IMG/VR virus record: IMGVR_UViG_3300036832_000092
Span: 1-52,898 of that record
DNA length: 52,898 nucleotides
Source of the DNA: a virus
Taxonomy: Duplodnaviria; Caudoviricetes
Reading direction: 5' to 3' (one strand)
Below, one piece after another: positions 2,819 to 22,196 of the stretch. Position numbers and translations under genes: made by a program. Below the pieces are notes generated by a model. The model had not been told where the DNA came from. It ran no database searches and worked only from the letters and a program-made list of their open reading frames with translations. The first letter of the stretch is position 1; every line of letters begins with the position of its first letter.

Positions 2819-3268
2819 ATGGCTTCATTCTCTGGCCGTATCAACAATGGCCCTGGTTACAAGATCATCTTGGATAGCAGGGCAATAGATGAAATGCTGC
2901 GTGGCCCCAATGGCTATGTGATGCGTGATCTGATTCGTCGTGCTGAGATGCTACAGACTTTGGCCAAGGAGCAATGCGGATTCGGCTCTGGTAATGATCC
3001 TCATGGACATTTGCGAGACAGCATCGTCAAGCGCATTGTGTCTGGCGGCTCGGGAACGCCATATGTGATGGTTGGTAGCGCGCACCCAATTGCGTTGATT
3101 CATCATGACGGTACTGCACCCCACGTAATTGTACCAAGGAATGCGACAGTGTTGGCATTCCCTTCCGATCGGTCGCCGAGTGGAATGGCGTTCGCAAAGA
3201 GAGTCAACCATCCAGGCACAAAGCCCAACAGGTATCTGACGGACAACCTGCCACGAGTCGCAAACTGA
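2819..3268 (+). CDS. Putative tail completion / neck protein (HK97 gp10-like)
   Basis: GHLRDSI, HDGTAPHVI, VNHPGTKPNRYL motifs. Confidence 0.7.
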   Translation: MASFSGRINNGPGYKIILDSRAIDEMLRGPNGYVMRDLIRRAEMLQTLAKEQCGFGSGNDPHGHLRDSIVKRIVSGGSGTPYVMVGSAHPIALIHHDGTAPHVIVPRNATVLAFPSDRSPSGMAFAKRVNHPGTKPNRYLTDNLPRVAN

Positions 3269-3957: not shown

Positions 3958-6524
3958 CAGTTATTGGTGAAGCCTACATCATGATCAAGGGTGTGTCTGA
4001 GGGCGATTCCGGTGTAAGCAAAATTGAAGGACAAATTTCTGGCGTTGGTGCATCTGCCGAGAAATCAAGTGGTCGTGCCAGGGCTGCATTCAAGTCAATG
4101 GGCACAGCGCTTGGCTCTGCGTTTGGTCCGGCATTCCAGCCGATTCAAGAAGTCATGGACAAGTTTGATGAGCTTGATATCCATGGAGGAAAGCTCAAGG
4201 ATAATGTCGGCAAATATGCATTAGGCATTGGTGCTGCAATGACTGGCGCCGGTACACTTTTGACGACTGTGTCTGATAAAGACAAAGTATCAATGGGACA
4301 ACTTGAGCAAGCGGTCAAGAATGCCGGTGGCGATTGGGAGAAGTACAAGGACAAGACTGAAGAGGTAGTCAAATCACAAGAGAAATATGGGCATACTGCC
4401 GTTGAGACATCTGGTGCTTTGAACGATCTTGTGACCAAAACGCACAATGTACATGATTCATATGAGAATATGCAGTTGGTTGCTGACGTTGCCGCTCAGA
4501 AGAATACCAGCTTGTCGTCTGCTGCATCTATTGTAGCCAAGGTGATGAATGGTAATACAAAGACGCTCAAGCAGTATGGCATCACGCAAGACGACATCAA
4601 CAAGAAGCTTGATACTGGCGCAATTCATACCAAGAATCTCCAGATGGCCCAGGCATTACAAGGAGTGGAAGCAAACAAGAATGCGTTGGCTGCGCTGAAG
4701 ACTCGTGATGCTCGTCTCAAGGAGATATTGGCAACAACTCAAGACAAAGGCCAGCAAGAATTATTGCGCAAGGAGATAGCCAAGGATTCAGATACACGTT
4801 CAAAGCTAACAGATGCGATGGGCAAGAACAAGGATAGGGCAAGTGCACTAAAGGCAGAACTCAAGCAATTGACTACTGGCCAAAAGGCAGGGGTGGCCGG
4901 TACTGAGTTGCTTGCGGAGAAGATGAAGGGCCAAGCAGCAATCGCTGCTGATACATTCTCTGGTAAGATGAAGGAAGTCAGAGCTAAGATTGAAGATTTT
5001 ATTGGTACCGTTGGGCAAAAGCTTGGACCAGCGCTCCAAATAGCCGGACCTGCCATGATGGGCTTTGGCGCTATTGTTGAATCTGGAATTGTAGGCAAGA
5101 TCGGCAATGGTATTGGCAAGATCAAAGAATTCATGAGCATGGAGAAGCTTGCTGGCGTTGCGACAAAGGTATGGACTGGTATTCAAGCAGCATTCAACAT
5201 AGTCATGGACGCCAACCCAATTGTGCTTGTGGGAGTAGCAATCACTGCCTTGGTTGGCGTTCTTGTTCTGGCATACCTCAAGTTCAAGCCATTCCATGAT
5301 TTGATCAACGCCATTGCTAGTGACATCAAGAAGTTCTTCATTGGCGCATTTGATGTTGTAATCAACGCATTCCATAGTTTCATCAACGCATTTGAAACAG
5401 TTTGGAAGTTTATACTTGACATCGTCAAGAAGTATTGGCCAATCATCCTTGCCGTGATATTGCCATTCGTTGGCATTCCAGTATTGATCATGCAAAACTG
5501 GAACAAGATCGTTAGCTTCTTTGAGAATCTGTGGGGCACGGTATCACAAATCTTCCAGAATGTCGTTGCGTGGTTTGGTCATTTACCATCAAGGATCATA
5601 ACTGCGCTGGGCAATATCGGCACAAAGGTTTGGTCTGCAATTCAAGCAGGCGTACAACACTTTGCTGATAAATTCATTGCGGTTGGCAAATCGCTCATTT
5701 CATACTTTGGCAAATTCGCCAGTCGCGTAATCAGCGGCATCGGCAATCTTGGTGCAAAAATATGGACCAATGTCTCGACAGGCCTGGGGAATTTGACCAA
5801 TGCCTTCACCAACTGGATTGGCAGAGCAGTTGATTGGTTTGGTACATTGCCAAACAAGGTCGTCAATGCAATTGGTAATATTGGCTCTGCTATCTGGAGT
5901 TCGGTTACATCAGGCTTGAATAACTTCATCAGTCACGTCACAAATTGGACTAGCAATATCGCCAACTATTTCGGCAACCTGCCGAGCAAAATCATTTCAG
6001 CTATTGGCAATCTAGGTTCCAAGATTTGGAATGGAGTCAGGGGTGGCCTTAGCACTATCAAGACTAATATTGTCAACGCATTCTCTGGCGCCGGATCATG
6101 GTTGCTTTCAGCTGGTAGTGATGTGGTCAGTGGCTTCATTCATGGCATCGAGAATATGTTTGGTAGCGTTGTGGATACTGCCAAGAGTTTGATCTCGCAC
6201 CTTGGACATTCTGTGCTGCATGCATTGGGTATCGGATCGCCATCAAAGGTGTATCATGAGATCGGCAAGAATGTCGCTGCTGGTCTCATTCAAGGTCTTG
6301 ATCATAGTCATGGCGATGTTGGAAATGCTGGTCGCCGACTGGTCAATGCTGTGATCCACAAGGATGGTGGCACAATTGGTGTGCCTATGCATGCGAATGC
6401 TGCGGGTGCTGGTGGCGGTCGGGTAATCAACTTGTTCCCCAATGCAATCATTGACTTTGGCAAGGAAAGCCCAGCGTCAATTGTCCAGCGCTTGCAGAGC
6501 GCAATTGTGGCGAGTAGGCTGTGA
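3954..6524 (+). CDS. Tape measure protein
   Basis: 856 aa; starts IGEAYI; ANPI hydrophobic segment, W/F periodic repeats, LGIGSPSKV near C-terminus. Confidence 0.93.
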   Translation: MTVIGEAYIMIKGVSEGDSGVSKIEGQISGVGASAEKSSGRARAAFKSMGTALGSAFGPAFQPIQEVMDKFDELDIHGGKLKDNVGKYALGIGAAMTGAGTLLTTVSDKDKVSMGQLEQAVKNAGGDWEKYKDKTEEVVKSQEKYGHTAVETSGALNDLVTKTHNVHDSYENMQLVADVAAQKNTSLSSAASIVAKVMNGNTKTLKQYGITQDDINKKLDTGAIHTKNLQMAQALQGVEANKNALAALKTRDARLKEILATTQDKGQQELLRKEIAKDSDTRSKLTDAMGKNKDRASALKAELKQLTTGQKAGVAGTELLAEKMKGQAAIAADTFSGKMKEVRAKIEDFIGTVGQKLGPALQIAGPAMMGFGAIVESGIVGKIGNGIGKIKEFMSMEKLAGVATKVWTGIQAAFNIVMDANPIVLVGVAITALVGVLVLAYLKFKPFHDLINAIASDIKKFFIGAFDVVINAFHSFINAFETVWKFILDIVKKYWPIILAVILPFVGIPVLIMQNWNKIVSFFENLWGTVSQIFQNVVAWFGHLPSRIITALGNIGTKVWSAIQAGVQHFADKFIAVGKSLISYFGKFASRVISGIGNLGAKIWTNVSTGLGNLTNAFTNWIGRAVDWFGTLPNKVVNAIGNIGSAIWSSVTSGLNNFISHVTNWTSNIANYFGNLPSKIISAIGNLGSKIWNGVRGGLSTIKTNIVNAFSGAGSWLLSAGSDVVSGFIHGIENMFGSVVDTAKSLISHLGHSVLHALGIGSPSKVYHEIGKNVAAGLIQGLDHSHGDVGNAGRRLVNAVIHKDGGTIGVPMHANAAGAGGGRVINLFPNAIIDFGKESPASIVQRLQSAIVASRL

Positions 6525-9762: not shown

Positions 9763-11667
9763 GTGATCAAGTCAGATCCAATTGCTGCACTGAAGAATCT
9801 TGATCAACGTATCGGGATTCTTGAGCGCATCAGTGATGGTGCTGTCGATCCTGACAATGCTGATCTGATCAATACACCATCCCATTTGGGTCGTAATGGC
9901 GGCCCAAATATTCCATCATCAAAATGGACAGAAGTCACTGGCTGGACTGACACTCTTGTAAGTCAAGTGCCAATTCAAGGTGATTACTTTGCGCCTGATA
10001 CAGATGGCTGGTATGAGATCGCTATCAAGGTGCAATTCCCAGGCAACAATACAGGTCGTCGTGCGGCCACGTTGCTCGAACACACAACGGCGCCTGGCCC
10101 AAATGACCTGATGATTGACTCGACTTCAACAGCGGCTATTACGTTGACTGGTGAGATATATCCACAATATCTTTATGCTGGTCATCTATATGCGTTGGCG
10201 CTTTGGCAGACATCTGGAGTCGCTCTTTCACCAACAATTTGCTACGTTGCAATTTGGCCATTTGGCGGCATACAAGGACCACCTGGCCCCGTTGGGCAAA
10301 CTGGCGCAACTGGTGCTGCTGGTCCAACTGGACCAAACGGACCACCTGGACAAACTGGACCGGCTGGACCGCAAGGATCTGCTGGCCCGCCTGGGCAAAT
10401 TGGTCCACAAGGCCCATATGGCTTGACTGGTCCGCCTGGTCCCACTGGTGCCGATGGTGTTGGTGTACCAAGTGGTGGATCTGCGGGGATGTCGCTAGTC
10501 AAGACGAGCAACAATGACTATGACACCATGTGGGAAATGGTATCAGGCGGCGGCCAGATAGGCCCACCAGGCCCGCAAGGACCAACAGGCCCAACTGGAG
10601 CAGATGGTGCAATTGGACCACCTGGACCGACTGGCGATCCTGGACCACAAGGGCCAACTGGTGCAACTGGTTCACAAGGTCCAGTTGGCGATACTGGTCC
10701 GGCGGGTGCCGATGGTCAGCAAGGATCGCCAGGTATACAAGGTGATCCTGGTGCAATAGGTCCAGAGGGCCCACAAGGTGAAACTGGTGCGCCTGGGCCG
10801 CCAATCAATATCAGCGGCACAGTACCGTCGGCGCCAAGCGATCTTCCCACTGGACTTGGCCCATCTGATGCAGGTAGAGGATGGATATCAGAAGATACAG
10901 GGCATTTGTGGGTATGGGATGGGGATTCATGGAATGACGCTGGGCCTGTCCAGGGACCAACAGGACCAATTGGGCCACCCGGTGCGACTGGTCCAGCGGG
11001 TCCAACAGGGCCAACAGGATCAACTGGGCCAGAAGGTCCACCAGGTGCAGGAATCTCCATAGATGGTACAGTAACAACAGCTAATCAATTGCCGTTACTG
11101 GGACCAGCAGATGCGGGGCAAGGATGGGTAACGCAGGATACCGGCCATTTGTATCACTGGGATGGTTCGCAGTGGTTCGATCTTGGGCCAATTCAAGGTC
11201 CGCAAGGCCCACAAGGTCCAGCAGGCCCACAAGGATCATCATACGTACAAACACTTTCTGCGCCAACGCCTAGCGGATCGCCATATACCGTAAGGCATAA
11301 CCTGAATACCATGAGCCCAATGGTGCAGCTATGGGGCGCAAATGGCATATTGCTACAAGCTGAAATAACAATCATTGACTCGAATACGATCACCGTTGGT
11401 TTCAACAACTCGCCGGGACAGAATGTCAATGTAGTTGTTGGCGCCGGTATTCCACAATCTGGTACTGCTGCAGGATCATATCGACATTACCAGACAGCTG
11501 CTGCTACAACGTGGACGATACCGCATAACTTGGGATTCAGACCAAGTGTCATGGTTGTCGATTCTGCATATGACCAAGTATTCCCAGGCAATGTACAGTA
11601 TTCAAATGATAATACTGTCGTGCTAAGTTTCTCGGCTGCTGTTGGCGGAGAAGCATACCTAAGCTGA
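9763..11667 (+). CDS. Collagen-like tail fibre protein
   Basis: Long (Gly-X-Y)n tracts with two GHL(W/Y).WDG..W.D.GP modules and H-N-L repeats. Confidence 0.85.
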
Positions 11668-11677
11668 AGGGGCGGCC

Positions 11678-12907
11678 ATGCCTGTATTCTATGGCGCAAT
11701 TGATTTGGGCAAGAATGAATTGCGCAATGCTGTCGTCCAAAACCTTGGTGCTGCTCCATCATCGCCAATCAAAGGTCAATTGTATTACGATTCCACGGCC
11801 AATATGTTGTATTGGTGGAATGGAACAACTTGGATTGGCGCGGCAGGCTCGGCGCTCACCCCCGCAGCTACAGTTACAACACAGGCTGTTGGCGATGCGC
11901 CAGTTGTTGGCGCTAGTGCGAATTATGCGCGTGAAGATCACAAGCATGGTCGTGAAGCATTTGGCGCAGTCGTCGCACAAATCGCATTCGGCTCAGCTTC
12001 AGCAAATGGCGCTGCCGCAACAATCAGTCGTTCAGATCACGCGCACGGTACTCCAACGCACGACAATGCGGCTCACTCAGCCATCCCGCTAAGCGCATTT
12101 GCACAACCAATTGCAAACGTCAATATGGGTGGCTATCAGCTGATTGGTTTGGTTGCGCCGACGCAATCTGATTCAGCTGCCAGCAAGTCATATGTTGACA
12201 CTACTGCCCAAGGCTTGGATGCAAAGCAATCTGTGAAGGCGGCAAGCACAGGCAACCTTGCATTGAATGCGCCGCAAACAGTCGATGGAATTGCATTGGT
12301 TGCTGGTGATCGTGTGCTTGTAAAGGATCAGACCACACCTGCTAACAATGGGATTTATGTGGTTGCTGCCGCTGCGTGGACTCGTGCGCTTGATATGGAT
12401 GCATGGACAGAAATACCAGGCGCATTCACATTTGTCGAGCAAGGCACTCTGAATGCTGATAATGGTTGGGTATGTACTGCTGATCAAGGTGGTACACTTG
12501 GCACAACCGCAATCACTTGGACGCAATTCAGCGGGGCTGGGCAGGTCAACGCTGGCGCTGGTTTGACCAAGACCGGCAACACAATTGATGCTGTCGCTGG
12601 TGATACAAGCTTGACGGTCAATGCCGATGAGTTGCACGTCAACACGGCGGTTATCGCAACTGTTGCTGCATTGAATGCGGCCATAGCGGGCATGACCAAG
12701 AAGTATGCTACAAACCTTGTTGGTACAGCAAGCCCTGAAGTGATCACCCATAACCTCAATACACGAGACATTCAACTCACAGTGCTCAATGGCGCATCCC
12801 CATATACGGCTGTGGAAGTCGACTGGGATGCGACTACGGCCAACACGGTAACTATCAGATACAATCCAAATCTTGGCGCAGGTTACAGAGTTGTAGTTGT
12901 GGGCTGA
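11678..12907 (+). CDS. Tail fibre / minor structural protein
   Basis: YAREDHKH, AASKSYVD, GDRVLVKDQT..NGIY, THNLNT motifs. Confidence 0.8.
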   Translation: MPVFYGAIDLGKNELRNAVVQNLGAAPSSPIKGQLYYDSTANMLYWWNGTTWIGAAGSALTPAATVTTQAVGDAPVVGASANYAREDHKHGREAFGAVVAQIAFGSASANGAAATISRSDHAHGTPTHDNAAHSAIPLSAFAQPIANVNMGGYQLIGLVAPTQSDSAASKSYVDTTAQGLDAKQSVKAASTGNLALNAPQTVDGIALVAGDRVLVKDQTTPANNGIYVVAAAAWTRALDMDAWTEIPGAFTFVEQGTLNADNGWVCTADQGGTLGTTAITWTQFSGAGQVNAGAGLTKTGNTIDAVAGDTSLTVNADELHVNTAVIATVAALNAAIAGMTKKYATNLVGTASPEVITHNLNTRDIQLTVLNGASPYTAVEVDWDATTANTVTIRYNPNLGAGYRVVVVG

Positions 12908-13733: not shown

Positions 13734-14006
13734 ATGACCTACAACTCAACTGCTGATATGCATGACGACTTTGACTTGCATCGCAGGCTTGTCGCTTGCG
13801 CGAGTGAACAAGGCAAGGGCAATCCGGATGACGGTGCTGCGCAGCCCGACAATTGGGTTGCCTTGCACAAGTGGCCAATTGTGAACAGCCCTGGTTGGTC
13901 TGCCAAATATGACTCTGCTCGCGCGTCTGGCAATACATCGCCTGGTAGGGATGCGGCAGTCATCACTGACGACGACATCTTGGCGACGATTCAGCCGATG
14001 GCATAG
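13734..14006 (+). CDS. Hypothetical protein (end of tail module)
   Basis: AGGGAG RBS; 90 aa; ends VITDDDILA. Confidence 0.7.
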   Translation: MTYNSTADMHDDFDLHRRLVACASEQGKGNPDDGAAQPDNWVALHKWPIVNSPGWSAKYDSARASGNTSPGRDAAVITDDDILATIQPMA

Positions 14007-15111
14007 TCATCATCATGTAGAATTGAAGATCGCAAAACATGCCTGGAGTCCATGGGGATTCCGGGCATTTTTGCTGCGCATTCTCTACCATTTCGGTATG
14101 AATCCGCCATTTACAGTTTCTTGGAGCCCATCCCCATCGTGCCTGGTGGTCAGAGTTCTGCTGCGAGCCTGTACAAGAGCCACTGTCGCGACACCTTTAC
14201 GGCGCATGTTCTCGCTGGCCTTCCGGCGCCTCACCCCGCAGATTCATGGCCCTTCATGTAATTCATGACAGCTTCACCAGCTTGGGCGAGAGGGTCAATC
14301 GACGTCTCCATGTAACTCATGGAACAGCCTTTCTCTACTAAATCGGTATGACATATCTGAATCCGCCAAATCAGTTCTAAGCAGAAGTCGATCTTGCCCA
14401 TGGTATTAGGTCTGATGCCTCACGCTCTGCTGCGAGGCTGACGTTCGCATGCCGTAGCTGCGATTCTCGTCAGCGCCCCACCCGGCTGGCAGGCCTCGAA
14501 AGTAAGCATCACGTAAGCATTAGTTATGAAAGGCATAAGAAAACCAGCTTTCACACCAGGGTTTACAGTAGATTCAGTGTTGCGGACGTAGCGCAACTGA
14601 AGGTTACGGCCCGCTCGATCCCCCAATAATTTCATGCACGCAAGCGCAACGAGCCGTTCGAGCCCCATGAATTTCATGGGGCGCGTTACGGACGGACTGT
14701 TGCGTCGCATACTTTCTCCCGAAACGGGTAAGCGAAGGATGTTCATGCGAAATATGGGACTAGCTAGGCGCTCTGCGAAGAGTAGCTCCGAAATTCCATG
14801 CGGGACATGCGCGCTACGGGTGGGCACAAGTCGATCTTGTGCAGCAGACCGAACCACCTCCTGACGTAAGGATTCATGAGAAATATGCGAGGAACTCAAA
14901 AGGTACCATGCGGGCCATGATCGATCTTTGTCAATAAAATAGTGTGATTCTTCTCATTTCCATGAGGTCGATGAGAGTTGCCTCAGGTTGGGGTGTTGTG
15001 AGTCCGACTAATAGGCGGATACCCCAATCTCTGGTTGCCTTATCGACAAGGCAGAAAATGCGAACTAGTAAATTGCTAGTCGCAAGCAAAATTACCATGG
15101 AGGTAATGAGA
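14007..15111. promoter_or_regulatory. ~1.1 kb non-coding control region between late and early genes
   Basis: No convincing ORF; diverged direct repeats, many hairpins, TAAAAT -10-like box at 14935-14940. Confidence 0.6.
14967..15058 (+). ncRNA. Pseudoknotted intergenic element, copy 0
   Basis: GTCGAT (14967-72) is complementary to loop ATCGAC of hairpin TTGCCTT/AAGGCAG; inserted stem GTTGGGGTGTT/GATACCCCAAT. Confidence 0.5.
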
Positions 15112-15549
15112 ATGTTCGAAATCACTGGCAAGCAGGTCATGGCGTCCGGCGCTGGTCACAACTACCACCTGTTCCGTAGCTGCTACGGTAACAAGTTGGG
15201 GCAGGGTTACCATGTCTCCGTTGGTAATGACATCTACCGTACGCACCGCGTATCGGTCGAAACTGCCATCGAGCAGGGTTACTTCGCATGCCGCGTATGC
15301 TATAAGCGTGCGGGGCTGACGGTCCCGGCTGCGGCCGACCGTGTGAAGGTCCGTGACGCTAAGCGTGCGGAACGTCTTGCGCGTAAGGCTGAGATTGAGG
15401 CTGCCAAGGCTGAGAACGTTGCCGCTCGTGCGGCGACTGACGCTGCGGTCGATGTGATCAAGGCTGCGAACGTTGAGGTTGACGTCAACGCTCTGATTGC
15501 GTCCCTGATCGACATGCTAAAGCTGGAGACTCTGGCCACTACGGTCTGA
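15112..15549 (+). CDS. Early protein with Ada-type Zn-binding-like motif
   Basis: GGAGG RBS at 15099; YHxxxxC...GYFACRVC followed by an Ala-rich helix. Confidence 0.7.
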   Translation: MFEITGKQVMASGAGHNYHLFRSCYGNKLGQGYHVSVGNDIYRTHRVSVETAIEQGYFACRVCYKRAGLTVPAAADRVKVRDAKRAERLARKAEIEAAKAENVAARAATDAAVDVIKAANVEVDVNALIASLIDMLKLETLATTV

Positions 15550-15604
15550 GTGCGTTGCGTTTGGCCATGCTAGTCATGGTCATTCGTTGCCTACTCAGGC
15601 AGAA
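15547..15604 (+). ncRNA. Pseudoknotted intergenic element, copy 1
   Basis: TGAGTG pairs with loop TACTCA of TTGCC/GGCAG; inserted CATG-CTAGT-CATG hairpin. Confidence 0.6.
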
Positions 15605-15630
15605 CTACCCTACTAGGAATGAGGAATCAA

Positions 15631-15840
15631 ATGGCAAACGTGCTCAGAGGTGTCGTAAAGGCATATCAAGACTGGGACTATCTCGACGTTGACGAGGAAG
15701 TCTCAGGTGAGCAAGTTGACGTTTCGATCTTCGCAGTCGTTGGGGAATTTGCGGGCAAGGAATTTGCCCATGATATCCCTGAGGGTTCCAAGATCGAATG
15801 GGACGCCGACTGGGAGCCTACCTACCAACTCAAGCAGTAA
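15631..15840 (+). CDS. Hypothetical early protein
   Basis: GAGGA RBS before ATG 15631; 69 aa acidic. Confidence 0.7.
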   Translation: MANVLRGVVKAYQDWDYLDVDEEVSGEQVDVSIFAVVGEFAGKEFAHDIPEGSKIEWDADWEPTYQLKQ

Positions 15841-15843
15841 ATC

Positions 15844-15903
15844 CGGTTGCGTTGCGTAATCTACATGCCTAGCATGTAGGTTGCGTTGCCCACCCGGGCA
15901 GAA
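15844..15903 (+). ncRNA. Pseudoknotted intergenic element, copy 2
   Basis: CGGTTG pairs 5/6 with loop CACCCG of TTGCC/GGCAG; 14-bp inserted hairpin. Confidence 0.6.
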
Positions 15904-15926
15904 TTACCGACTGAAGGAGAATCAGA

Positions 15927-16154
15927 ATGGCCATGGAGCCCAAGCCCAAGCCTGAGAAGTCGTTCAGCATTGACGGCATTGAAGTCAAGGTTGGCATGAT
16001 GTTCTGGGACTATGACTTGCGCCGTTGCCAGGTGCTAGCGGAGGAGCCATACAACCCATACGATGGTGTTGTTTGGTTCCGTACCACCACTGGTATGTTT
16101 GATGGTCAGCGCCTCTGGCGTCGCCACCCATCTACTGGTAAGCCCTGCTACTGA
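15927..16154 (+). CDS. Hypothetical early protein
   Basis: AAGGAG RBS; 75 aa. Confidence 0.75.
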   Translation: MAMEPKPKPEKSFSIDGIEVKVGMMFWDYDLRRCQVLAEEPYNPYDGVVWFRTTTGMFDGQRLWRRHPSTGKPCY

Positions 16155-16213
16155 ACACTCAACAGAATGTACATGCTAGTCATGTACATTCGATTGTCCG
16201 TTCAGGACAGAAA
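16152..16213 (+). ncRNA. Pseudoknotted intergenic element, copy 3
   Basis: TGAAC pairs with loop GTTCA of TTGTCC/GGACAG; perfect 11-bp hairpin GAATGTACATG-CTAGT-CATGTACATTC. Confidence 0.55.
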
Positions 16214-16328
16214 GGATTCTCAAGCCTGATAGGCCTGAGGATTCGGTCTTGCCCTGCCAGTCCGGCAGGAGTAAGGTCAGCGCTAGCAAGGAGATTCCTT
16301 GCTAGGCATGCGATCCAGGAGGAACGCA

Positions 16329-16910
16329 ATGACTGAAGTGAATGAGGAGATCAAGGCAACCGCAGAGTCGGATGCCCCAGTCCCCGCAACGTCCGACGGT
16401 GCGGAAGGGGCACCTGCCGACAGCACTCCCGTGGTCAAGACGCCCAAGTCTTGGGCCGACCGTATCAAGACGAGTCTTGAGAACGGACGGCAGAACGCGC
16501 GGTACATCAAGTTCAAGGAGTTCATCGCCGATGAATCCAATGGTGAAACGGTCGCTGACCTGGACACCATCGCTCTGGTGATGACCTTGATCAACGGATG
16601 GCGTGCGACTCCTGAGTACAAGGAGTGGGACGCAGAATACCGTGCGACGACTGGTGGAGGCACGACGCCCAAGGACGTCAAGCCCAAGACCAAGGAGGAA
16701 GCGCAGGCACTGGTCAAGAAGGCAGAAGAGAGTGCTGCCCGACAGGCCAAGGCCAAGGCCACTGCTGAGGCTCGCGCAGAGCGTGCGCGGCTGATGCTGG
16801 CTGAGCTGGAGCAGGAGGCTGCTGGCGAGGGTGTCGAGGCTGATGAATCCGATGAGGACATCACCGACGACACTGGCGACGCTGACGATTCCACGGATGA
16901 AGCGTTCTAG
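16329..16910 (+). CDS. Hypothetical acidic/helical early protein
   Basis: AGGAGG RBS before ATG 16329; high-GC3 codon usage. Confidence 0.8.
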   Translation: MTEVNEEIKATAESDAPVPATSDGAEGAPADSTPVVKTPKSWADRIKTSLENGRQNARYIKFKEFIADESNGETVADLDTIALVMTLINGWRATPEYKEWDAEYRATTGGGTTPKDVKPKTKEEAQALVKKAEESAARQAKAKATAEARAERARLMLAELEQEAAGEGVEADESDEDITDDTGDADDSTDEAF

Positions 16911-16931
16911 CAGACGCTAATTCCCATGGTG

Positions 16932-16968
16932 CGGATGGGGCCTGGTCGAACTGACCTGGCCCTATCCG
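16932..16968 (+). terminator. Strong hairpin after gene (terminator or stabiliser)
   Basis: CGGATGGGGCC-TGGTC..GACCT-GGCCCTATCCG; no U-tract. Confidence 0.4.
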
Positions 16969-16990
16969 GGCATGTACCTTGATCTCAACA

Positions 16991-17054
16991 GGTCGAAACT
17001 CCATGCACGGCATGTGTATGGAGTCCGCATGTAAGGCATGCGCTGATGATGACC
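16991..17054 (+). ncRNA. Hammerhead ribozyme, type II; predicted cleavage after C17025 (GUC)
   Basis: GGTC-GAAA-[CTCCATGCAC/GTGTATGGAG]-TC-[CGCATG/CATGCG]-CTGATGA-T-GACC; loop I TAAGG can pair with upstream CCTTG (16977-81). Confidence 0.88.
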
Positions 17055-17094
17055 AAATGTCTCAGTCAGAACATCGAACCAGGGAGAATCCCCA

Positions 17095-17670
17095 ATGGAA
17101 AGTGAGAAACGTCCCATCACGGACAGTCAGATCAAGTATCTGACTGACCTTGCTGGCTCACGGCAGATGGAAGATGCCGACAGGCTATTCCTACTGGAGC
17201 ACATGAAAGACTTCGACACCAAGTTGGCGTCAAAGTGGATTGATGCGCTCAAGATGCTGCCGCCAAGGCCCAAGCAGTTGCCGAAGCCCAAGTGGTCCGT
17301 GCCTGACGTGATCCCAGATGGTCGTTATGCGATCCTGAATCCCAGTAAGGCATGGGTATTCTTTCGCATTCTGACCAAGGAAGATCGTCAGAACGGACTG
17401 GAGTACAGGATTGTCCAAAAGATCCTTGGGGCGCCTGGTGATTTCAGGTACGTCAGAGTCACCGCAGAGGAGTGGAACCTTGCGATCACAAAGATCGCAG
17501 TGGATCCAGGCCTGTTCTCGCAGATGTTCGGCATCCAAGTCGGTGTCTGCGGGGTGTGTGGCAGTCCGCTGACGGACCCCACTTCAATCAAGTTGGGTAT
17601 CGGCCCAATTTGCGCTGCGAAGTATGGGTTATTCGGCGACGATGAGGCTGACGAGGCTGACGATGAGTGA
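17095..17670 (+). CDS. DUF6011-like Zn-ribbon protein
   Basis: CGVCGSPLTDPTSIKLGIGPICA motif. Confidence 0.8.
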   Translation: MESEKRPITDSQIKYLTDLAGSRQMEDADRLFLLEHMKDFDTKLASKWIDALKMLPPRPKQLPKPKWSVPDVIPDGRYAILNPSKAWVFFRILTKEDRQNGLEYRIVQKILGAPGDFRYVRVTAEEWNLAITKIAVDPGLFSQMFGIQVGVCGVCGSPLTDPTSIKLGIGPICAAKYGLFGDDEADEADDE

Positions 17671-17920
17671 GCCGCAGAAGTTCCAGTCAATCGAACTGGA
17701 CTGCCCACCTGGCATGGTGCGCCCAAATGATCTGTTCGACGCTGTCGTCAAGGATCTGGGCATCGAGCCCATATCACGTGATGTCCCATGTATGTTTGGA
17801 CATTCTGAGTGGTTCTTCAGAATCGACAGACCTACATGGGAGGCTAAGTATCAGCCAACAATCAAGGAACGTGTGGAGCGCCTGTACAATTCGGGAGTGA
17901 TCAGATACGGCAGCTGGTAA
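17663..17920 (+). CDS. Hypothetical protein
   Basis: GAGG before ATG 17663; overlaps previous stop. Confidence 0.7.
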   Translation: MSEPQKFQSIELDCPPGMVRPNDLFDAVVKDLGIEPISRDVPCMFGHSEWFFRIDRPTWEAKYQPTIKERVERLYNSGVIRYGSW

Positions 17921-17979
17921 CCATGTTTGGCCGCAGACGATAGTGCTGCGGTCATTCATGGCTATCAAGGTGATAGTCA

Positions 17980-18264
17980 ATGGAAATGAGGAAGGGTCAA
18001 ATGGGACAAGACTCGCTCAGAGTTGAGGGTTTGTCGGTGGGACGACTGTATCGCATTATCTACAGGAATCCTTTGGACAAACTACCACGGCAGATGATTG
18101 CTAAGTACATGGGTCAGGAGGATAGCGCAGACACGCTGTTCTTCAATCTGCGCCCAATTGCCGGCACCCAAGCGATCAAGATCGAATGGATACAACAGCT
18201 ATGGGAGACAGACCAAATCGTCGCTGCACCAACGATCTATCGTGGCGAAACGCGAGTGTTCTGA
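17980..18264 (+). CDS. Hypothetical protein
   Basis: AAGGTG RBS; 94 aa. Confidence 0.65.
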   Translation: MEMRKGQMGQDSLRVEGLSVGRLYRIIYRNPLDKLPRQMIAKYMGQEDSADTLFFNLRPIAGTQAIKIEWIQQLWETDQIVAAPTIYRGETRVF

Positions 18265-18354
18265 GCAAGGATGTTTGGTCATGTTGTGATACATGGCCAT
18301 TCACCCCTGTTCAGGGGAAGTTCCCATCAACCCATGGAGAATTGAGGAGAGTCA

Positions 18355-20295
18355 ATGGAGGAACAGCAGGAACAGAATCACCAGGCTATACCTGGTGGCT
18401 CAATCGCTGCGGCTATAGCGGCCAAGACTGCCGCTGAGAAGCCCATAGATCCCAAGTGTTACTTGGACATCGAGAATGGGTTCATCAGCGTCAAGTCAAG
18501 GTACTCCGCTATGGCCAACGTCGTGTATCGACAGCAAGGTGGTCGTTGGAAGGATGACGACAACGGCAAAAGATGGCTGCTACCTCTGACGATGGAGACA
18601 TGCCAGGCGCTTCGCAAGCATTGGAAGCAAGACTTGGTGATCTCCAAATCCCTCAACCAATGGGCGAGAGGTGAGAAGGTCAGACAAGAGGCTGTTGCAG
18701 CACTTCACAAGGCAGAAAGTGCAACGCTGAATGAAGTCTCGGTCACGCACCCCGCATTAGCGAAAGCCATGGATAGCAGAACTTACCAACAGGTTGGTGC
18801 TGCGTTCATTGCTCATCAAAGGTCTGTGCTCATTGCTGATGAGCCTGGCTTGGGCAAAACGCTTGAAGCTATTGCGGGAATTGTCGAGGCTGGGTGTTGG
18901 CGAGGATTGATCCTTGTCGCTGCGCCGCTCACCAGTCTACGGACTGTGTGGGAACATGAGCTGTCGAAGTGGGCTCCTGAAGCCCATGTAGTGATTGGTG
19001 TTCCCAAGAAGCACGATAATGCTGCTGCGCGCATTGACTTGCAGAACAAGTTCATTGAGCACTACGCAGAGAATCCTCTACAACCGCATATCTTGGTTGT
19101 GAATCCTGAGATGCTTCAGGCTCGCAAGCAAGACAACTTTGTCCTGTTCACAGCAGTTGAGTGGCAGGCAATTGTGGTCGATGAAAGCCATAAATACTTG
19201 GCTGGCATTGAGTCTGCACGCAAGCATACGCAGACTGGTAAAGGATTGCTTGATCTCAAGCTAGCAGAAGATGGGGTCAAGATCGCATTGTCGGGAACAC
19301 CCATGCGCGGCAGGCCGTGGCACTTGTGGGGTACGTTGCACTGGTTGCGTCCCAAGCAGTACACTGCGGCATGGAGATGGTATGAACGATACTTCCTCAT
19401 GACCAAGGGATGGGGCGGCAGTCAAACGATTGGTGCGCTAAACCCATGGCGACAAGAGCAATTCTACAAGTCGCTTGATGACATCATGCTTCGCAGAACA
19501 AAAGCTGAGGTCGTCAAGGAACTACCTGCCAAGCAGCACATCGACATCATGGTCGATATGACCAGTTCCCAAGAGGCCATGTACAAGTCTATGGCAGCCG
19601 ATGCTGCCGCAGAGTTGCTAGGCATGGACTTTGGGGATGATGATGCTGGGAGTATCTCGGCTGTTGGTGTCCTTGCCATCATGACACGCCTCAAGCAGTT
19701 TGCGGACTGCGCATGGAGAGGCGCGAACATTGAGGGCATGGTACCTACAGCAAAGATGCATCCTTTGCATTCTGGCAAGACTGCGGTCATTGAGGATATG
19801 CTCATCGAACGTGGAATTGCTGGACCTATGGATGAGCGGGATGGCAATCACAAGATCGTTATTGCCAGCCAGTTCACCAAGGTCATCGACTCGCTGGAGG
19901 AATACCTTGATGGCATTGGAGTCGATTGCCTCAAGATTACCGGTGGCGTGAATGAGCAACAACGTGTATCGGCTACCCAACGGTTCCAGTCTGAAGGTGG
20001 ACCGCGTGTAATGCTCATGAATACCAAGGCGGGTGGCGTATCGATCACGCTCGATGCGTTCTGCGATGAGCTCATCATTATCGATGAGACATGGACGCCA
20101 GACGATCAGGAGCAGTTGGAAGATCGTATCCACCGGGTGAGTCGTATTCACCAAGTGACGATCTACAGGCTGCTGACCAAGGAGTCCATCGACGAATACA
20201 TTGCGGACATCATTGCTCGCAAGGATTCAATCCAGAAGCAGATTCTGGATGGTCGTCGTGGAGTCGAGAACATAGCTGCTGCGATCGTGCGGTAG
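18355..20295 (+). CDS. SNF2-family (SF2) DNA helicase
   Basis: ADEPGLGKT, VDESH, LSGTP, QLEDRIHR motifs. Confidence 0.93.
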   Translation: MEEQQEQNHQAIPGGSIAAAIAAKTAAEKPIDPKCYLDIENGFISVKSRYSAMANVVYRQQGGRWKDDDNGKRWLLPLTMETCQALRKHWKQDLVISKSLNQWARGEKVRQEAVAALHKAESATLNEVSVTHPALAKAMDSRTYQQVGAAFIAHQRSVLIADEPGLGKTLEAIAGIVEAGCWRGLILVAAPLTSLRTVWEHELSKWAPEAHVVIGVPKKHDNAAARIDLQNKFIEHYAENPLQPHILVVNPEMLQARKQDNFVLFTAVEWQAIVVDESHKYLAGIESARKHTQTGKGLLDLKLAEDGVKIALSGTPMRGRPWHLWGTLHWLRPKQYTAAWRWYERYFLMTKGWGGSQTIGALNPWRQEQFYKSLDDIMLRRTKAEVVKELPAKQHIDIMVDMTSSQEAMYKSMAADAAAELLGMDFGDDDAGSISAVGVLAIMTRLKQFADCAWRGANIEGMVPTAKMHPLHSGKTAVIEDMLIERGIAGPMDERDGNHKIVIASQFTKVIDSLEEYLDGIGVDCLKITGGVNEQQRVSATQRFQSEGGPRVMLMNTKAGGVSITLDAFCDELIIIDETWTPDDQEQLEDRIHRVSRIHQVTIYRLLTKESIDEYIADIIARKDSIQKQILDGRRGVENIAAAIVR

Positions 20296-20434
20296 AGCTC
20301 ACATTGACCTCATGGAAATGGGAAGAATCAAAAAGCCAACAGTTACATGTGTCGGACAGCGTCCGATTCGTCCTGGAAAGTCGATCTTGTCTTGGAAGTA
20401 AAATCAGAGTAAGATCGACTCATGGAAATTCCAC

Positions 20435-21214
20435 ATGAAAGGAATGATGATGGACGAACGAACATGGGAGCAAAACGCTCTTGAATTCGCTGAACTGGAC
20501 AAGGGTGAGGGCTGGCCATTTGCCATCCTTGTCGCTTGCTCAGTTCAACCAGGCAAAGTTGGTGGTCGTCGTTCAAATCTCGATCGAGATTTGAAGGTTG
20601 ACGCAACAACATTTGCAGCTAGGGCAGAAACCAGCAATGATCGCATCCTCAGGTATTACAGGGCATGGCAGAAAGCTGCATTGAATGGCTATGTACCCAA
20701 TGCTGATACGCTGAAGCCAAGTGATGTCGATAACGTCAAGTTGCCGACACTTGCTTGGTCAAAGAGTGATGCTGCGCCTGGTGAGCCTTTTGCCTACTCA
20801 GCATCCGCAGAAGCAGCGGCCACAAAGCCAACTACTGCCAAGCAGGTGCAGAAGGCACTTGATTCATTACCACCTGTTCAACGTGATCAGGTTGTGAATC
20901 ATGCGCTTGGGCAAAGGGCTGCTGAAAGTCGCAAGGCCAATGCAATTATTGCTGAAGAGCAAGAATTGCGGATGATGGCTGAAGATCGCAAGATTCTTAC
21001 CAATGAGGATCTTGGTATCACAGGCAGTAGTTTCCCAGAGTTCGAGGCCATGGCTGTTTACAGTCATAACATGCTGTTGATCAGGAAGCGTTCCAAGGAA
21101 CTGATCAAGATCCTTAGCAACATTGCCGTTGTGAAGGATGAGAAAGCAGTTGCGTTACTTGGTGATCTTGTTGATGCGATTGCGCCTCATTTGGCGGTGA
21201 AGGACGATGCGTGA
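20435..21214 (+). CDS. Hypothetical protein, putative HTH DNA-binding
   Basis: KVDATTFAARAETSNDRILRYYRAW resembles an HTH segment seen in actinobacterial/phage proteins; true start may be 20444-20450. Confidence 0.55.
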   Translation: MKGMMMDERTWEQNALEFAELDKGEGWPFAILVACSVQPGKVGGRRSNLDRDLKVDATTFAARAETSNDRILRYYRAWQKAALNGYVPNADTLKPSDVDNVKLPTLAWSKSDAAPGEPFAYSASAEAAATKPTTAKQVQKALDSLPPVQRDQVVNHALGQRAAESRKANAIIAEEQELRMMAEDRKILTNEDLGITGSSFPEFEAMAVYSHNMLLIRKRSKELIKILSNIAVVKDEKAVALLGDLVDAIAPHLAVKDDA

Positions 21215-21668
21215 GACAATTCAGCGGCAATGGACTAGACTGGAGTATAAGCTAGCTCATAACATTGTCGACATGGTCAAAGATGCTGGTGTTGCTGGGG
21301 TGATATTCAAGCCAACGCTTGTGTTGCATGATATCATGCCCCTTGCTGTGATGATTGCAAGCAAGGAAAAGCCAGGCTATACATTGATCAATGATGATGG
21401 ATGGTACGTCATCACGAATGATAAGCATCAGATATTCAAGGTGCTGTTCAATCGTCTCAAAAAGGTAGATACCGCAATCAGAAGGATTCAAGCTGAAATG
21501 CAGCCACTGGGCTACAGCATGGAGACTATGGAGGTGATGACTTCAATCAACTCTATGATCCATGCAATCTCATCATCTGAATTGGCGGAATGTATTGCGA
21601 ATCTACTAGATGAATACAAAGCAATAGAAACAGTTTGGGAAACAACCAAGCGCGAAGTGAGTAACTAA
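21207..21668 (+). CDS. Hypothetical protein
   Basis: Overlaps the upstream gene end; 153 aa. Confidence 0.7.
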   Translation: MRETIQRQWTRLEYKLAHNIVDMVKDAGVAGVIFKPTLVLHDIMPLAVMIASKEKPGYTLINDDGWYVITNDKHQIFKVLFNRLKKVDTAIRRIQAEMQPLGYSMETMEVMTSINSMIHAISSSELAECIANLLDEYKAIETVWETTKREVSN

Positions 21669-21885
21669 CCTAATCGACATTGGACAAATCGGACGCTGTC
21701 CTGCACGTGTAAACGAATAAGCATGGGGTGTATGGGGATGCCAAATCCTCATGCGCTCCATGTTGTTTTGCCCAATTGTCTACTTTGCCTATAGGCAAAT
21801 AGAGCAAGCGCAGAATGTCCATGCCTACCATGGGTCCACGTCCGATTCACCCTGAATTTAGTCCGATTTCGCCCGATTTCTCCCC

Positions 21886-21914
21886 TTTACTAAACGCGAT
21901 TGGTACGGTAGAAT
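21886..21914 (+). promoter_or_regulatory. Sigma70/SigA-type promoter
   Basis: TTTACT-17 bp-TAGAAT in an intergenic region. Confidence 0.6.
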
Positions 21915-21959: not shown

Positions 21960-22196
21960 TTGACGTACAGAATTGCTATCAACCATGGCTCGCTTGAGAA
22001 TCCTTTGGATAGGGTAGCAATGCGAGCGGTGCGGAATGCAACTGACCCCTTCTGTACTGCTATGTATGGGATCAATGAAGTGACGACATACTGTATTGCG
22101 GACGGTGGACTGGAGCCTGTGCTCACGGCCATCGCCCGCAATCGTCGCATTTCATGGCTGGTCCAAGTCAACTATCACACCGATGTGGAGGAGTGA
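21960..22196 (+). CDS. Hypothetical protein
   Basis: 78 aa ORF downstream of the promoter. Confidence 0.5.
   Translation: MTYRIAINHGSLENPLDRVAMRAVRNATDPFCTAMYGINEVTTYCIADGGLEPVLTAIARNRRISWLVQVNYHTDVEE

What the first reader, a model, noticed from the sequence alone, without database searches (positions are those of the whole stretch)
14945..20330. 35-bp long-range helix joins the start of the early unit to the sequence right after the helicase stop, 5.3 kb away
Seen: 14945-14979 (TGATTCTTCTCATTTCCATGAGGTCGATGAGAGTT) is complementary to 20296-20330 (AGCTCACATTGACCTCATGGAAATGGGAAGAATCA) with 31 Watson-Crick pairs, 3 G.U and 1 A.A. Three of the four deviations are wobble-compatible on the + strand, which favours RNA pairing over a DNA repeat. 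The left arm starts 4 nt after a TAAAAT box and overlaps the pk strand of motif copy 0, so the two folds are mutually exclusive and could act as a switch once the unit is fully transcribed.
Basis: partly seen in the sequence, partly recalled or inferred. Interest (0 to 1): 0.8.

Follow-up and report, generated by a model that had tools for sequence, protein, structure and literature searches.

The report
Inverted repeat bracketing phage early operon
A soil phage carries a real, partly conserved 35-base inverted repeat joining the leader of its early gene block to the spot just after the helicase gene 5.3 kb away, most likely an RNA helix that closes the early transcript on itself, though this is untested.

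Summary
14945-14979 and 20296-20330 pair with 31 Watson-Crick, 3 G.U and 1 A.A on the + strand. It ties a local palindrome for the best inverted-repeat score in this 52.9-kb phage genome, far above shuffles.

It is not an orphan. L003 (helicase 58% identical) has a homologous, perfect 17-bp pair. Its left arm lies in the leader of the homologous first early gene. Its right arm starts 5 nt after the helicase stop, 7.3 kb away, just before a terminator hairpin. Two short contigs (L123, L143) carry the right arm at the same place.

A second, unrelated 31-bp pair (20343-20373 / 21682-21712) starts 12 nt after the right arm. It brackets a two-gene cassette absent from three relatives.

Folding predicts that the left arm also closes a very stable leader by pairing with the ribosome-binding region of the first early gene. 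The two folds therefore exclude each other.

No invertase, integrase or transposase was found. No inverted contig was seen.

Best reading (about 0.45): a + strand RNA 5'-leader/3'-UTR helix, acting as a refolding switch and probable RNase III substrate. DNA-level roles remain possible. No RNA data exist.

The parts
14935..14940 (+). TAAAAT box, possible -10 element 4 nt before the left arm
   Evidence: Read directly from the sequence. The sigma-70 consensus scan did not call it because there is no -35 match. A transcription start here is unproven.
14945..14979 (+). Left arm of the long-range helix (I1L). Its outer 14-15 nt, TGATTCTTCTCATT, are conserved in relative L003.
   Evidence: Homologue in L003 at 4568-4584.
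14941..15114 (+). Highly structured leader of the first early gene. The left arm forms its closing helices.
   Evidence: MFE -67.6 kcal/mol, z = -6.0, 0 of 200 shuffles as stable. Pair list.
15096..15125 (+). Translation initiation region of gene 1 (SD GGAGG 15099-15103, AUG 15112). It is the local alternative partner of left-arm bases 14944-14964.
   Evidence: pair table. Arm-versus-TIR duplex test: 133 of 1000 shuffled arms did as well (window), 11 of 1000 (L003).
15112..15549 (+). First early gene (145 aa, H..F..C / C..C motif, unknown function). Homologues are present in L003 and L004 (L004's lies behind another ORF).
15550..18354 (+). Remaining small early genes (including the DUF6011 protein 17095-17670). 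They are separated by repeated intergenic hairpin motifs.
18355..20295 (+). SNF2-type helicase, last gene inside the bracket
   Evidence: PF00176 3.5e-29, phrog_62 5.6e-108.
20296..20330 (+). Right arm (I1R). It starts 1 nt after the helicase stop and is unstructured locally.
   Evidence: Local fold -5.8 kcal/mol, z = +0.9. Homologues after the helicase stop in L003, L123 and L143.
20343..20373 (+). Left arm of the second bracket (I2L), 12 nt after I1R
20435..21668 (+). Two-gene cassette (259 aa and 153 aa, no family hits). Its two genes have no counterpart in relatives L003-L005, and L123's post-helicase sequence differs.
21682..21712 (+). Right arm of the second bracket (I2R), 14 nt after the cassette's last stop codon
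21720..21772 (+). 20-bp hairpin followed by UUGUUUUG: probable intrinsic terminator of the early unit
   Evidence: Fold -33.9 kcal/mol, z = -6.5. The simple terminator scan did not call it.
21768..21795 (+). Conserved promoter-like element TTGCCC-N16-TATAGG. It follows the post-helicase terminator in L003 and L124 too.
   Evidence: 24 nt, 92% identical to L003 11926-11949.

Best explanation
The two arms act as RNA on the + strand. The early genes from the leader at 14945 through the SNF2 helicase are read as one transcript. When RNA polymerase passes the helicase stop, the purine-rich right arm (20296-20330) becomes available. It pairs with the pyrimidine-rich left arm at or near the 5' end, closing the 5.3-kb early RNA into a panhandle.

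Before that, the left arm is held in a local leader fold, where it pairs with the Shine-Dalgarno, start-codon and first-codon region of the first early gene. Forming the 34-pair long-range helix therefore remodels the leader. It changes access to that gene's start, and it creates a double-stranded stretch long enough for host RNase III. Cutting it would define the 3' end of the early message and leave its ends paired.

The adjacent 31-bp pair I2 would do the same for the inserted two-gene cassette. It would loop the cassette out, so that the early helix still sits next to the terminator at 21720-21772.

Shown: the complementarity, its conservation and position in relatives, and the predicted competing folds. 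Inferred: co-transcription of both arms, the direction of the effect on translation, and RNase III cleavage.
For: 1. Complementarity is far beyond chance and better on the + strand. I1 has 3 G.U pairs on + and 0 on -, with energies of -53.9 versus -45.5 kcal/mol. I2 has 2 G.U on + and 1 on -.

2. A homologous pair exists in L003 (helicase 58% identical). It has 17 of 17 WC pairs, with the left arm 4568-4584 in the leader about 140 nt before the homologue of gene 1. The right arm 11865-11881 lies 5 nt after the helicase stop. In that search, 20 shuffles scored 12 or less against 17 observed. Apart from the arm 14-mer, the noncoding DNA compared between the two phages shares only the genome-wide 10-mer motif and a promoter-like element.

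3. Helix position 15 is T-A in the window and C-G in L003, so both sides changed together.

4. The right arm is also present within 5 nt of the helicase stop in L123 (74% identical) and, in degenerate form, in L143 (68%). Three of L123's four differences from the window's right arm would keep pairing with the window's left arm on the + strand only: T>C turns G.U into G-C, and two A>G changes give U.G.

5. The right arm lies inside the transcript, not outside it. A terminator hairpin plus U-run follows it in L003 and L143. In the window the terminator follows the cassette. Between 14945 and 20330 the scan called no + strand terminator-like site.

6. The right arms are locally unstructured (z = +0.9 window, +0.3 L123), while the leaders are unusually structured (z = -6.0 window, -4.8 L003).

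7. In both phages the left arm pairs with the first gene's translation start. Arm-shuffle tests gave 133 of 1000 (window) and 11 of 1000 (L003). My own Fisher combination of the two gives about 0.01.

8. The MFE fold of the 6,835-nt RNA 14941-21775 forms both I1 (34 pairs) and I2 (29 pairs).

9. I1 and I2 have unrelated sequences. Each runs from a gene leader to just after a stop codon. One RNA logic explains this, whereas DNA recombination would need two separate systems.

10. No recombinase family was found.
Against: - There is no RNA evidence at all. No RNA run holds this phage.
- The promoter at 14935-14940 is a lone -10-like box that the scan did not call.
- L003 and variant contigs in runs X2 and X3 have a different upstream flank. 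The arm therefore need not be the transcript's 5' end.
- Repeated hairpin motifs between the early genes could be internal promoters or processing sites. In that case the arms would rarely share one RNA. L003 also has one weak + strand terminator-like site between its arms (5005-5024).
- The outer 14-15 nt of the arms are identical in phages whose helicases are only 58% identical. A pure helix would be expected to drift by compensatory change. Such sequence conservation also fits a protein-binding site.
- One coordinated change and five or six wobble events are thin statistics. The L123 argument assumes an unseen left arm.
- The feature is absent from 10 of 13 related loci with sequence after the helicase, so it is not essential to this phage group.
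- MFE prediction will pair any long inverted repeat, so point 8 is weak.
- The window's arm-versus-TIR test alone is not significant (133 of 1000).
Confidence: 0.45

Rival explanations
1. The arms work as DNA. They are two copies, in opposite orientation, of a sequence-specific protein-binding site at the two edges of the early block. Examples would be an operator or roadblock pair that loops or insulates the early region.
For: - The outer 14-15 nt are identical between the window and L003 despite 58% helicase identity. This points to sequence-specific recognition rather than mere pairing.
- The core has weak dyad symmetry (TGA-N6-TCA).
- The left arm sits right after a -10-like box, a classic operator position.
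- L003 has another motif (TTTCG[AT][AT]TTCAGAAC) at 3265 and 3742 and, inverted, at 12261. It behaves like a repeated binding site spanning the same region.
Against: - A site placed between a stop codon and the terminator is odd for transcription control.
- The window's repeat extends 20 nt further inward with no counterpart in L003. A fixed protein site does not need this.
- The dyad is broken in the window's right arm (CCA for TCA), and its spacing changes in L143.
- The wobble-type differences all fall on one strand.
- No candidate binding protein was identified.
Confidence: 0.2
2. The arms are module-boundary sequences used by recombination. They are conserved islands at which related phages exchange the early block. 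Their inverted orientation may come from an old inverted duplication, with no role in gene expression.
For: - Similarity to other phages stops exactly at the outer edges of the arms. Variant contigs in X2 and X3 match from 14945 onward but have other sequence before it. A variant contig in X1 (about 86% identical) matches 20016-20330 and then continues unlike the window.
- L123 and L003 also diverge right after the arm.
- I2 brackets a cassette that looks like an insertion relative to L003.
- The phage encodes its own exonuclease and Sak4-like annealing protein.
Against: - Edges of similarity at a conserved element are expected whatever keeps it conserved.
- L003 and the X2/X3 variants share the flank upstream of the arm, so 14945 is not a general breakpoint.
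- Recombination linkers need direct orientation between genomes, not inverted orientation within one.
- Neutral relics should not stay perfectly complementary (17 of 17 in L003) at this divergence.
Confidence: 0.15
3. RNA pairing acts in trans. The helicase 3' UTR is released as a small RNA carrying the right arm. It binds the leaders of new early transcripts to shut them off or have them cut.
For: The evidence is the same complementarity and strand bias as for the cis model. In addition, the right arm is unstructured and lies just before a terminator hairpin in L003 and L143. That is the usual anatomy of 3'-UTR-derived small RNAs. The paper on SdhX came up only in a search listing and I did not read it.
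Against: In the window and in L123 no terminator follows the arm closely. A defined small RNA end is therefore missing there. Nothing distinguishes trans from cis in silico.
Confidence: 0.1
4. The 5.4-kb block is a DNA element that moves or flips. It would be either an invertible segment or a transposon-like unit with terminal inverted repeats (ends TG...CA).
For: - Inverted repeats of about 34 bp flanking a few kb are the anatomy of invertible segments (recalled from Mu G and P1 C).
- The outer ends read 5'-TG...CA-3', as in many transposons (recalled).
- Similarity breaks at the outer edges.
Against: - There are no Resolvase or Phage_integrase matches anywhere in the record.
- No transposase-like hit was found in the 8 ORFs inside the bracket that were searched.
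- There is no target-site duplication: the flanks are ...ATAGTG and AAAAGC....
- Each phage has only two copies of the arm.
- The block holds a helicase present in every relative examined and sits at the same place in L003.
- Inversion would turn all early genes against the single transcription direction of the genome.
- Contigs listed as spanning each arm in X1 and X2, and the left arm in X3, have the window's arrangement, and the listed joints show no strand change. Contigs can miss rare forms.
Confidence: 0.05

Closest known systems
hok mRNA tac/fbi fold-back (plasmid R1 hok/sok). Passages read in PMC9841398.
   Same: In hok mRNA a 5'-end element pairs with a 3'-end element of the same mRNA. 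This locks the mRNA in one state. The 5' element also has an alternative local partner, and a Shine-Dalgarno sequence is masked or unmasked by the choice between them. The three-partner logic predicted here (left arm, gene-1 start region, right arm) is the same design.
   Different: The hok mRNA is a single small transcript (recalled as a few hundred nt) from a toxin-antitoxin locus with an antisense RNA. Here the span is 5.3-7.3 kb across about nine phage genes, and no toxin or antisense partner was seen. In hok the 5'-3' pairing keeps the SD masked. Here it would be expected to release the start region. Nothing here is experimentally shown.
RNase III duplexes flanking 16S and 23S in rRNA operons. 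Passage read in PMC8708148.
   Same: In both cases, complementary segments kilobases apart bracket a functional unit inside one long transcript. Two such brackets lie in tandem: 16S then 23S in the rRNA operon, I1 then I2 with a 12-nt spacer here. In both, the duplex is long enough for RNase III.
   Different: rRNA stalks flank stable RNAs and are universal. Here they would flank mRNA modules of a phage and occur only in part of one phage group. Cleavage is not shown.
icaR 5'-UTR/3'-UTR pairing in Staphylococcus aureus. Abstract read in PMC3868564.
   Same: The 3' UTR of an mRNA base-pairs with its own 5' UTR. This affects translation initiation and gives an RNase III substrate.
   Different: In icaR the 3' UTR pairs with the Shine-Dalgarno region itself, represses translation, and acts on a monocistronic mRNA. 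Here the 3' element pairs with the anti-SD partner, not the SD, and the distance is about five times longer across an operon.
Long-range intramolecular RNase III targets in Bacillus subtilis mRNAs. Passages read in PMC11780869.
   Same: That work shows that mRNA base pairing over long distances is a real and common RNase III substrate class in bacteria.
   Different: The distances reported there are hundreds of nucleotides in host mRNAs, not 5-7 kb bracketing a phage operon.
RNase III sites of the phage T7 early region (recalled; no paper on it was read, only reference-list titles seen)
   Same: Both are early operons of a lytic phage read by host RNA polymerase, with hairpins between the genes and a terminator after the last early gene.
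   Different: T7 sites are local hairpins, not kilobase-spanning helices.

Membership tests
Long-range RNase III processing duplex (rRNA-operon type) | Complementary segments flanking the unit form a duplex of about two helical turns or more | tested here: met
   34 pairs, -53.9 kcal/mol. I2 has 29 pairs, -49.7 kcal/mol. L003 has only 17 pairs.
Long-range RNase III processing duplex (rRNA-operon type) | Both segments lie on one primary transcript | tested here: inconclusive
   The scan called no + strand terminator-like site between the arms. However, there is no RNA data, no called promoter, and the intergenic hairpin motifs have unknown function.
Long-range RNase III processing duplex (rRNA-operon type) | RNase III cuts within the duplex | not testable with these tools
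   This needs an in vitro cleavage assay or end mapping in an rnc mutant host. The phage encodes no RNase III itself.
hok-type 5'/3' fold-back switch | The 5' element has two exclusive partners, one distal at the 3' end and one local that governs the ribosome-binding site | tested here: inconclusive
   Predicted by folding in the window and in L003. Shuffle support is 133 of 1000 and 11 of 1000. This is prediction only.
hok-type 5'/3' fold-back switch | Type I toxin gene with an antisense RNA partner | tested here: not met
   The bracket holds helicase, DUF6011 and small unknown genes. Rfam found no family in the window. The feature may work like hok but is not a member of the family.
Site-specific invertible DNA segment (Gin/Hin/Cin type) | A recombinase gene next to, or in the same genome as, the inverted repeats | tested here: not met
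   PF00239 and PF00589 gave no match at E <= 0.01 in the whole record. The controls matched in 12 and 14 of 14 genomes.
Site-specific invertible DNA segment (Gin/Hin/Cin type) | Both orientations present in the population | tested here: inconclusive
   Only the window's arrangement appears in the listed contigs of three soil runs. Contigs drop rare variants, and raw reads were not available.
Transposable element with terminal inverted repeats | A transposase is encoded between the repeats | tested here: not met
   8 ORFs inside the bracket were searched against PHROGs and/or Pfam, with no transposase-like hit.
Transposable element with terminal inverted repeats | Target-site duplication, and copies at different sites | tested here: not met
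   The flanks differ. There are two arm copies per genome, and the position relative to gene 1 and the helicase is the same in L003.
icaR-type 3'UTR-SD pairing | The 3' UTR pairs directly with the Shine-Dalgarno region | tested here: not met
   The right arm pairs with the left arm, which is itself the partner of the SD/start region. The right arm resembles the SD/start region rather than complementing it.

The most novel reading that the evidence does not exclude
Phage gene modules may carry their own kilobase-spanning closing helices, the mRNA counterpart of rRNA processing stalks. The early operon would be closed 5'-to-3' by a 35-bp helix that also works as a completion sensor. Only when the last gene (the helicase) has been transcribed would the 3' arm strip the 5' arm off the first gene's ribosome-binding site. 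A cassette inserted later brought its own 31-bp closing helix. It is therefore looped out and the operon's closure survives. On this reading, mosaic exchange in these phages would move whole helix-bracketed RNA modules.
Probability: 0.2. Interest if true: 0.8.

Novelty: new variant of a known kind. Interest (0 to 1): 0.6.

Why it matters
If the RNA reading is right, this would be a 5'-3' closing helix spanning a whole 5-7 kb polycistronic phage message. The documented bacterial cases I found are far shorter: icaR is monocistronic, and the B. subtilis RNase III targets span hundreds of nt. For rRNA operons, the passage I read describes the flanking duplexes but not their span.

It would provide a simple timing device that reports completion of the early transcript back to its first gene. 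It would also suggest why some phage modules travel with matched end sequences.

The idea is directly testable with a leader-reporter fusion, with and without the 3' arm, and with RNase III.

If instead the arms are DNA sites or recombination linkers, the finding is a modest note on mosaic boundaries.

Tried and rejected
- I3 (15858-15888 / 16160-16190) looked at first like a third bracket. I rejected it because it is two direct copies of a palindromic CATG-rich hairpin belonging to the repeated early intergenic motif.

- Reading the arm as a coding start ('MILLI...'). The ORF from GTG 14944 is in frame with gene 1. However, it has no ribosome-binding site in the window. The matching ORF in L003 stops after 27 codons, read by eye from the sequence. 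The antisense reading from the right arm stops after 10 codons in the window. I did not pursue this further.

- A search for the arm 15-mer in IMG/VR gave 109 single hits. None extends beyond about 20 nt of similarity, so they are chance matches. A degenerate 23-mer covering the window and L123 arm types gave 0 hits. The I2 core 20-mer gave 0 hits.

- A 16-mer predicted for the unseen left arm of the L143-type phage gave 45 hits. One was L143 itself. None of the other 44 is related by tblastn or blastn, except a DUF6011-like hit in L184, where the match lies inside a coding frame.

- More relatives were sought with the helicase in IMG/VR, JGI metagenomes and GTDB genomes, and with gene 1. None added a second phage with both arms beyond L003.

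- Non-homologous brackets at the same position in L004, L005, L007 and L008: none scored above the shuffles.

- RNAduplex on whole intergenic segments gave meaningless giant interior-loop duplexes. I replaced it with an ungapped score.

- No RNA holder was listed for this phage, so nothing can be said about expression.

- The simple terminator scan did not call the hairpins that I read as terminators at window 21720-21772 and L003 about 11888-11920. That reading rests on folding.

- P0001 (259 aa, cassette) has only 3 homologues in 5.8 billion proteins and no Pfam or PHROG family. The cassette is therefore not a known mobile element.

Supplementary files of papers were not consulted.

Full report
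**What the window is.** The window is a whole IMG/VR virus record of 52,898 bp. Its first 278 bases recur at the end, so the assembly closes on itself.

Nearly all long ORFs lie on the + strand. They include:
- terminase, portal, major head and tape-measure genes
- a DNA polymerase, a primase, an exonuclease, a Sak4-like annealing protein and a thymidylate synthase

No tRNA and no Rfam family was found. No Resolvase, Phage_integrase or RNase III domain is encoded.

The tail and lysis end of the late genes stops near 14268. A strong terminator-like hairpin already sits at 14039-14068. About 0.85 kb without a convincing gene follows. The first early gene starts at 15112, behind a GGAGG box.

**The observation.** The arms are exactly as described. 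On the + strand, 14945-14979 pairs with 20296-20330 through 31 Watson-Crick pairs, 3 G.U pairs and one A.A. On the - strand the three wobbles become mismatches. Duplex energies are -53.9 kcal/mol (+) and -45.5 kcal/mol (-).

- It is the longest inverted repeat reported for the window.
- Its 23-nt core is expected 0.00 times by chance at the mismatch level observed.
- It scores 24 on my scale, against 14-18 for the best repeat in each of 15 shuffled genomes.
- Among 120 pairings of 16 noncoding segments it is the top score (29.9). I2 follows at 23.6, and all others score 15.3 or less.

TAAAAT lies 4 nt upstream, but the consensus scan found no promoter there. The SNF2-type helicase ends one base before the right arm.

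**A second bracket.** Twelve bases after the right arm starts another, unrelated inverted repeat, 20343-20373 / 21682-21712. It has 27 WC, 2 G.U and 2 mismatches on the + strand. It encloses two ORFs (259 and 153 aa) with no Pfam or PHROG family and almost no homologues.

These two ORFs have no counterpart in relatives L003-L005. In L003 and L124 the helicase is followed by a terminator hairpin and then a conserved promoter-like element (TTGNCC, spacer, TATAGG or TATACT). In the window, that element sits at 21768-21795, just after a 20-bp hairpin with a U-run (21720-21772, z = -6.5). The I2-bracketed segment therefore looks like an insertion between the right arm and the early terminator.

A third apparent pair, I3, is only two copies of a palindromic hairpin motif.

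**Relatives.** Helicase searches gave the following loci with sequence after the stop codon: L123, L124, L125, L127, L132, L003, L004, L005, L135, L142, L143, L144 and L145. L125, L127 and L005 are identical there, and so are L144 and L145.

Three of these 13 carry a homologue of the right arm within 5 nt of the stop:
- L123 (helicase 74% identical), 29 nt with 4 substitutions
- L003 (58%)
- L143 (68%), a degenerate form with a one-base deletion that I recognised by eye and by alignment, not by the mismatch search

Of the seven loci that also include several kb upstream, only L003 has a left arm. In L003 the left arm (4568-4584, CATGATTCTTCTCATTC) and the right arm (11865-11881) are perfectly complementary over 17 nt and lie 7.3 kb apart. 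That search scored 17, against 12 or less in 20 shuffles. The left arm lies about 140 nt before the homologue of the window's first early gene.

Between the noncoding DNA of the two phages, only three things align: this 14-mer, a genome-wide 10-mer motif, and the promoter-like element.

Helix position 15 is T-A in the window and C-G in L003, so both sides changed.

In a helicase tree, window+L123 and L143+L003 are two well-supported pairs inside an unresolved six-way split. The arm-bearing phages may or may not form one clade.

L123 and L143 are short contigs without the left side. I could not recover their left arms.

**DNA-level checks.** Logan contigs of three soil runs were laid on 14300-21900. 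X1 may be the source sample.

- Listed contigs span the left arm in the window's arrangement in X1, X2 and X3. Listed contigs span the right arm plus I2L in X1 and X2.
- The listed joints include no change of strand.
- Contigs can miss rare forms, so low-level inversion is not excluded.
- Variant contigs break similarity exactly at the outer edges of the arms. In X2 and X3, a contig matches from 14945 onward and has other sequence before it. In X1, a contig about 86% identical matches 20016-20330 and then goes on unlike the window.
- The foreign upstream sequence in X2 and X3 resembles L003's upstream flank. The window, not the others, therefore has the replaced flank.

There is no target-site duplication. 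There is no transposase-like hit among the 8 bracketed ORFs searched.

**RNA-level checks.**
- The leader 14941-15114 folds to -67.6 kcal/mol (z = -6.0).
- In that fold, left-arm bases 14944-14964 pair with 15096-15125. This region holds the Shine-Dalgarno box, the start codon and the first codons of gene 1. Bases 14967-14980 pair with 15035-15047.
- L003's leader is also unusually stable (z = -4.8). There the arm pairs with codons 2-4 of its gene 1 and, in the centroid fold, with a segment that by my reading's centroid is the Shine-Dalgarno region.
- Shuffling the arm gave duplexes at least as good in 133 of 1000 trials (window) and 11 of 1000 (L003). This is suggestive together and weak alone.
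- The right arms are locally unstructured.
- With the left arm blocked, the leader refolds to -52.7 kcal/mol. Free, it folds to -71.3 kcal/mol. The -54 kcal/mol long-range helix therefore wins on energy.
- The MFE fold of the 6,835-nt RNA 14941-21775 contains both I1 and I2. Any long inverted repeat would do so, so this only shows consistency.

**Weighing the readings.** Three facts favour an RNA role on the + strand:
- The right arm's place, between a stop codon and a terminator.
- The one-strand wobble pattern: I1 has 3 versus 0, I2 has 2 versus 1, and three of L123's four changes are pairing-compatible with the window's left arm.
- Two unrelated brackets in tandem, each running from a gene leader to just past a stop codon.

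Three facts hold confidence down:
- There is no RNA evidence at all.
- The arm's outer 14-15 nt are strictly conserved in sequence, which also suits a protein site.
- Ten of 13 related loci lack it.

I put the cis RNA helix at about 0.45, a trans version at 0.10, a DNA protein-site pair at 0.20, recombination linkers or a relic at 0.15, and a flipping or moving DNA element at 0.05.

**Comparison with known systems.**
- The closest design is the tac/fbi fold-back of hok mRNA (passages read). It is not a member of that family, because there is no toxin or antisense RNA.
- The closest anatomy is the pair of RNase III duplexes flanking 16S and 23S rRNA (passage read).
- icaR (abstract read) and the long-range RNase III targets of B. 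subtilis (passages read) show that 5'-3' and long-range mRNA pairing are real in bacteria, but over much shorter spans.
- My literature searches were few and narrow. They turned up no phage case of a kilobase-spanning operon-closing helix, which does not show that none is in print.

**Verdict.** The feature is real, non-random and partly conserved. Its function is unproven. The most likely reading is a long-range RNA closing helix with a built-in alternative fold at the first gene's start.

Noticed in passing
whole window, e.g. 14387, 14830, 20380, 29469, 31537 (+) and 705, 8036, 35956, 37508, 43438, 44912 (-): The 10-mer GTCGATCTTG occurs 33 times at up to 1 mismatch, against 3.6 expected (largest shuffle 7). 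It appears on both strands, in coding and noncoding DNA. The same core recurs many times in relative L003. In L003's leader and in the window's cassette leader (20380-20419) it pairs with its own complement in long hairpins. Its function is unknown. Possibilities include a binding site, a recombination signal or a methylation-related motif.
   Followed up: partly
15550-15618, 15841-15926, 16155-16307, 17921-17979, 18265-18354: A repeated intergenic module lies before most small early genes. It consists of a CATG-rich palindromic hairpin, then (T/C)CATTCG, then a second hairpin of the type TTGCC...GGCAGAA. It could be an internal promoter or an RNA processing site. It explains inverted repeats I3 and I21.
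   Followed up: partly
20572-20595: A perfect 24-bp palindrome, TTCAAATCTCGATCGAGATTTGAA, lies inside the first cassette gene. An odd 'goes back' contig joint in run X2 (20704 to 20559) lies next to it.
   Followed up: no
16211-16225 and 21992-22006: A perfect 15-nt complement links two noncoding stretches 5.8 kb apart (AAAGGATTCTCAAGC / GCTTGAGAATCCTTT). It is the fourth-best score among noncoding pairs. It would cross the I1 and I2 helices.
   Followed up: no
14039-14068 and 14269-15111: A strong + strand terminator-like hairpin (13 pairs plus a T-run) lies inside the called ORF 13909-14268. About 0.85-1 kb without a convincing gene follows and shows no sequence similarity to relatives. This could be where the physical genome ends or an origin lie.
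   Followed up: no
1-278 and 52621-52898: A 278-nt direct repeat at the two ends of the record is 99% identical. The record is therefore probably a complete, circularly closing assembly, although it is labelled linear and 76% complete.
   Followed up: no
10300-11234: Collagen-like Gly-X-Y coding repeats lie in the 634-aa gene 9763-11667 (families D2, D3, D6). The gene sits among the tail genes and is partly shared with L003.
   Followed up: no
L003 3265-3293, 3742-3756, 12247-12275: Relative L003 has a separate motif, TTTCG[AT][AT]TTCAGAAC. It occurs twice upstream of the early region and once, inverted, about 390 nt after the helicase. Together the copies form a 29-nt, 83% inverted repeat that encloses the conserved arm pair. 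It looks like a repeated binding site.
   Followed up: no
L004 3413-6676: Relative L004 carries at least six copies of a 23-nt hairpin, ACACCCTTA-N5-TAAGGGTGT, between its early genes. It sits where the window has its own, different intergenic hairpin motif.
   Followed up: no
L142: The only hit in GTDB genomes is a 24.7-kb contig of a soil MAG labelled Scandinavium sp. (Enterobacteriaceae), with a helicase 63% identical. This is at best a weak host hint, because binning of phage contigs is unreliable. The nearest isolated-phage helicase matches are actinobacteriophages at 66-72% nucleotide identity over 170-285 nt.
   Followed up: no
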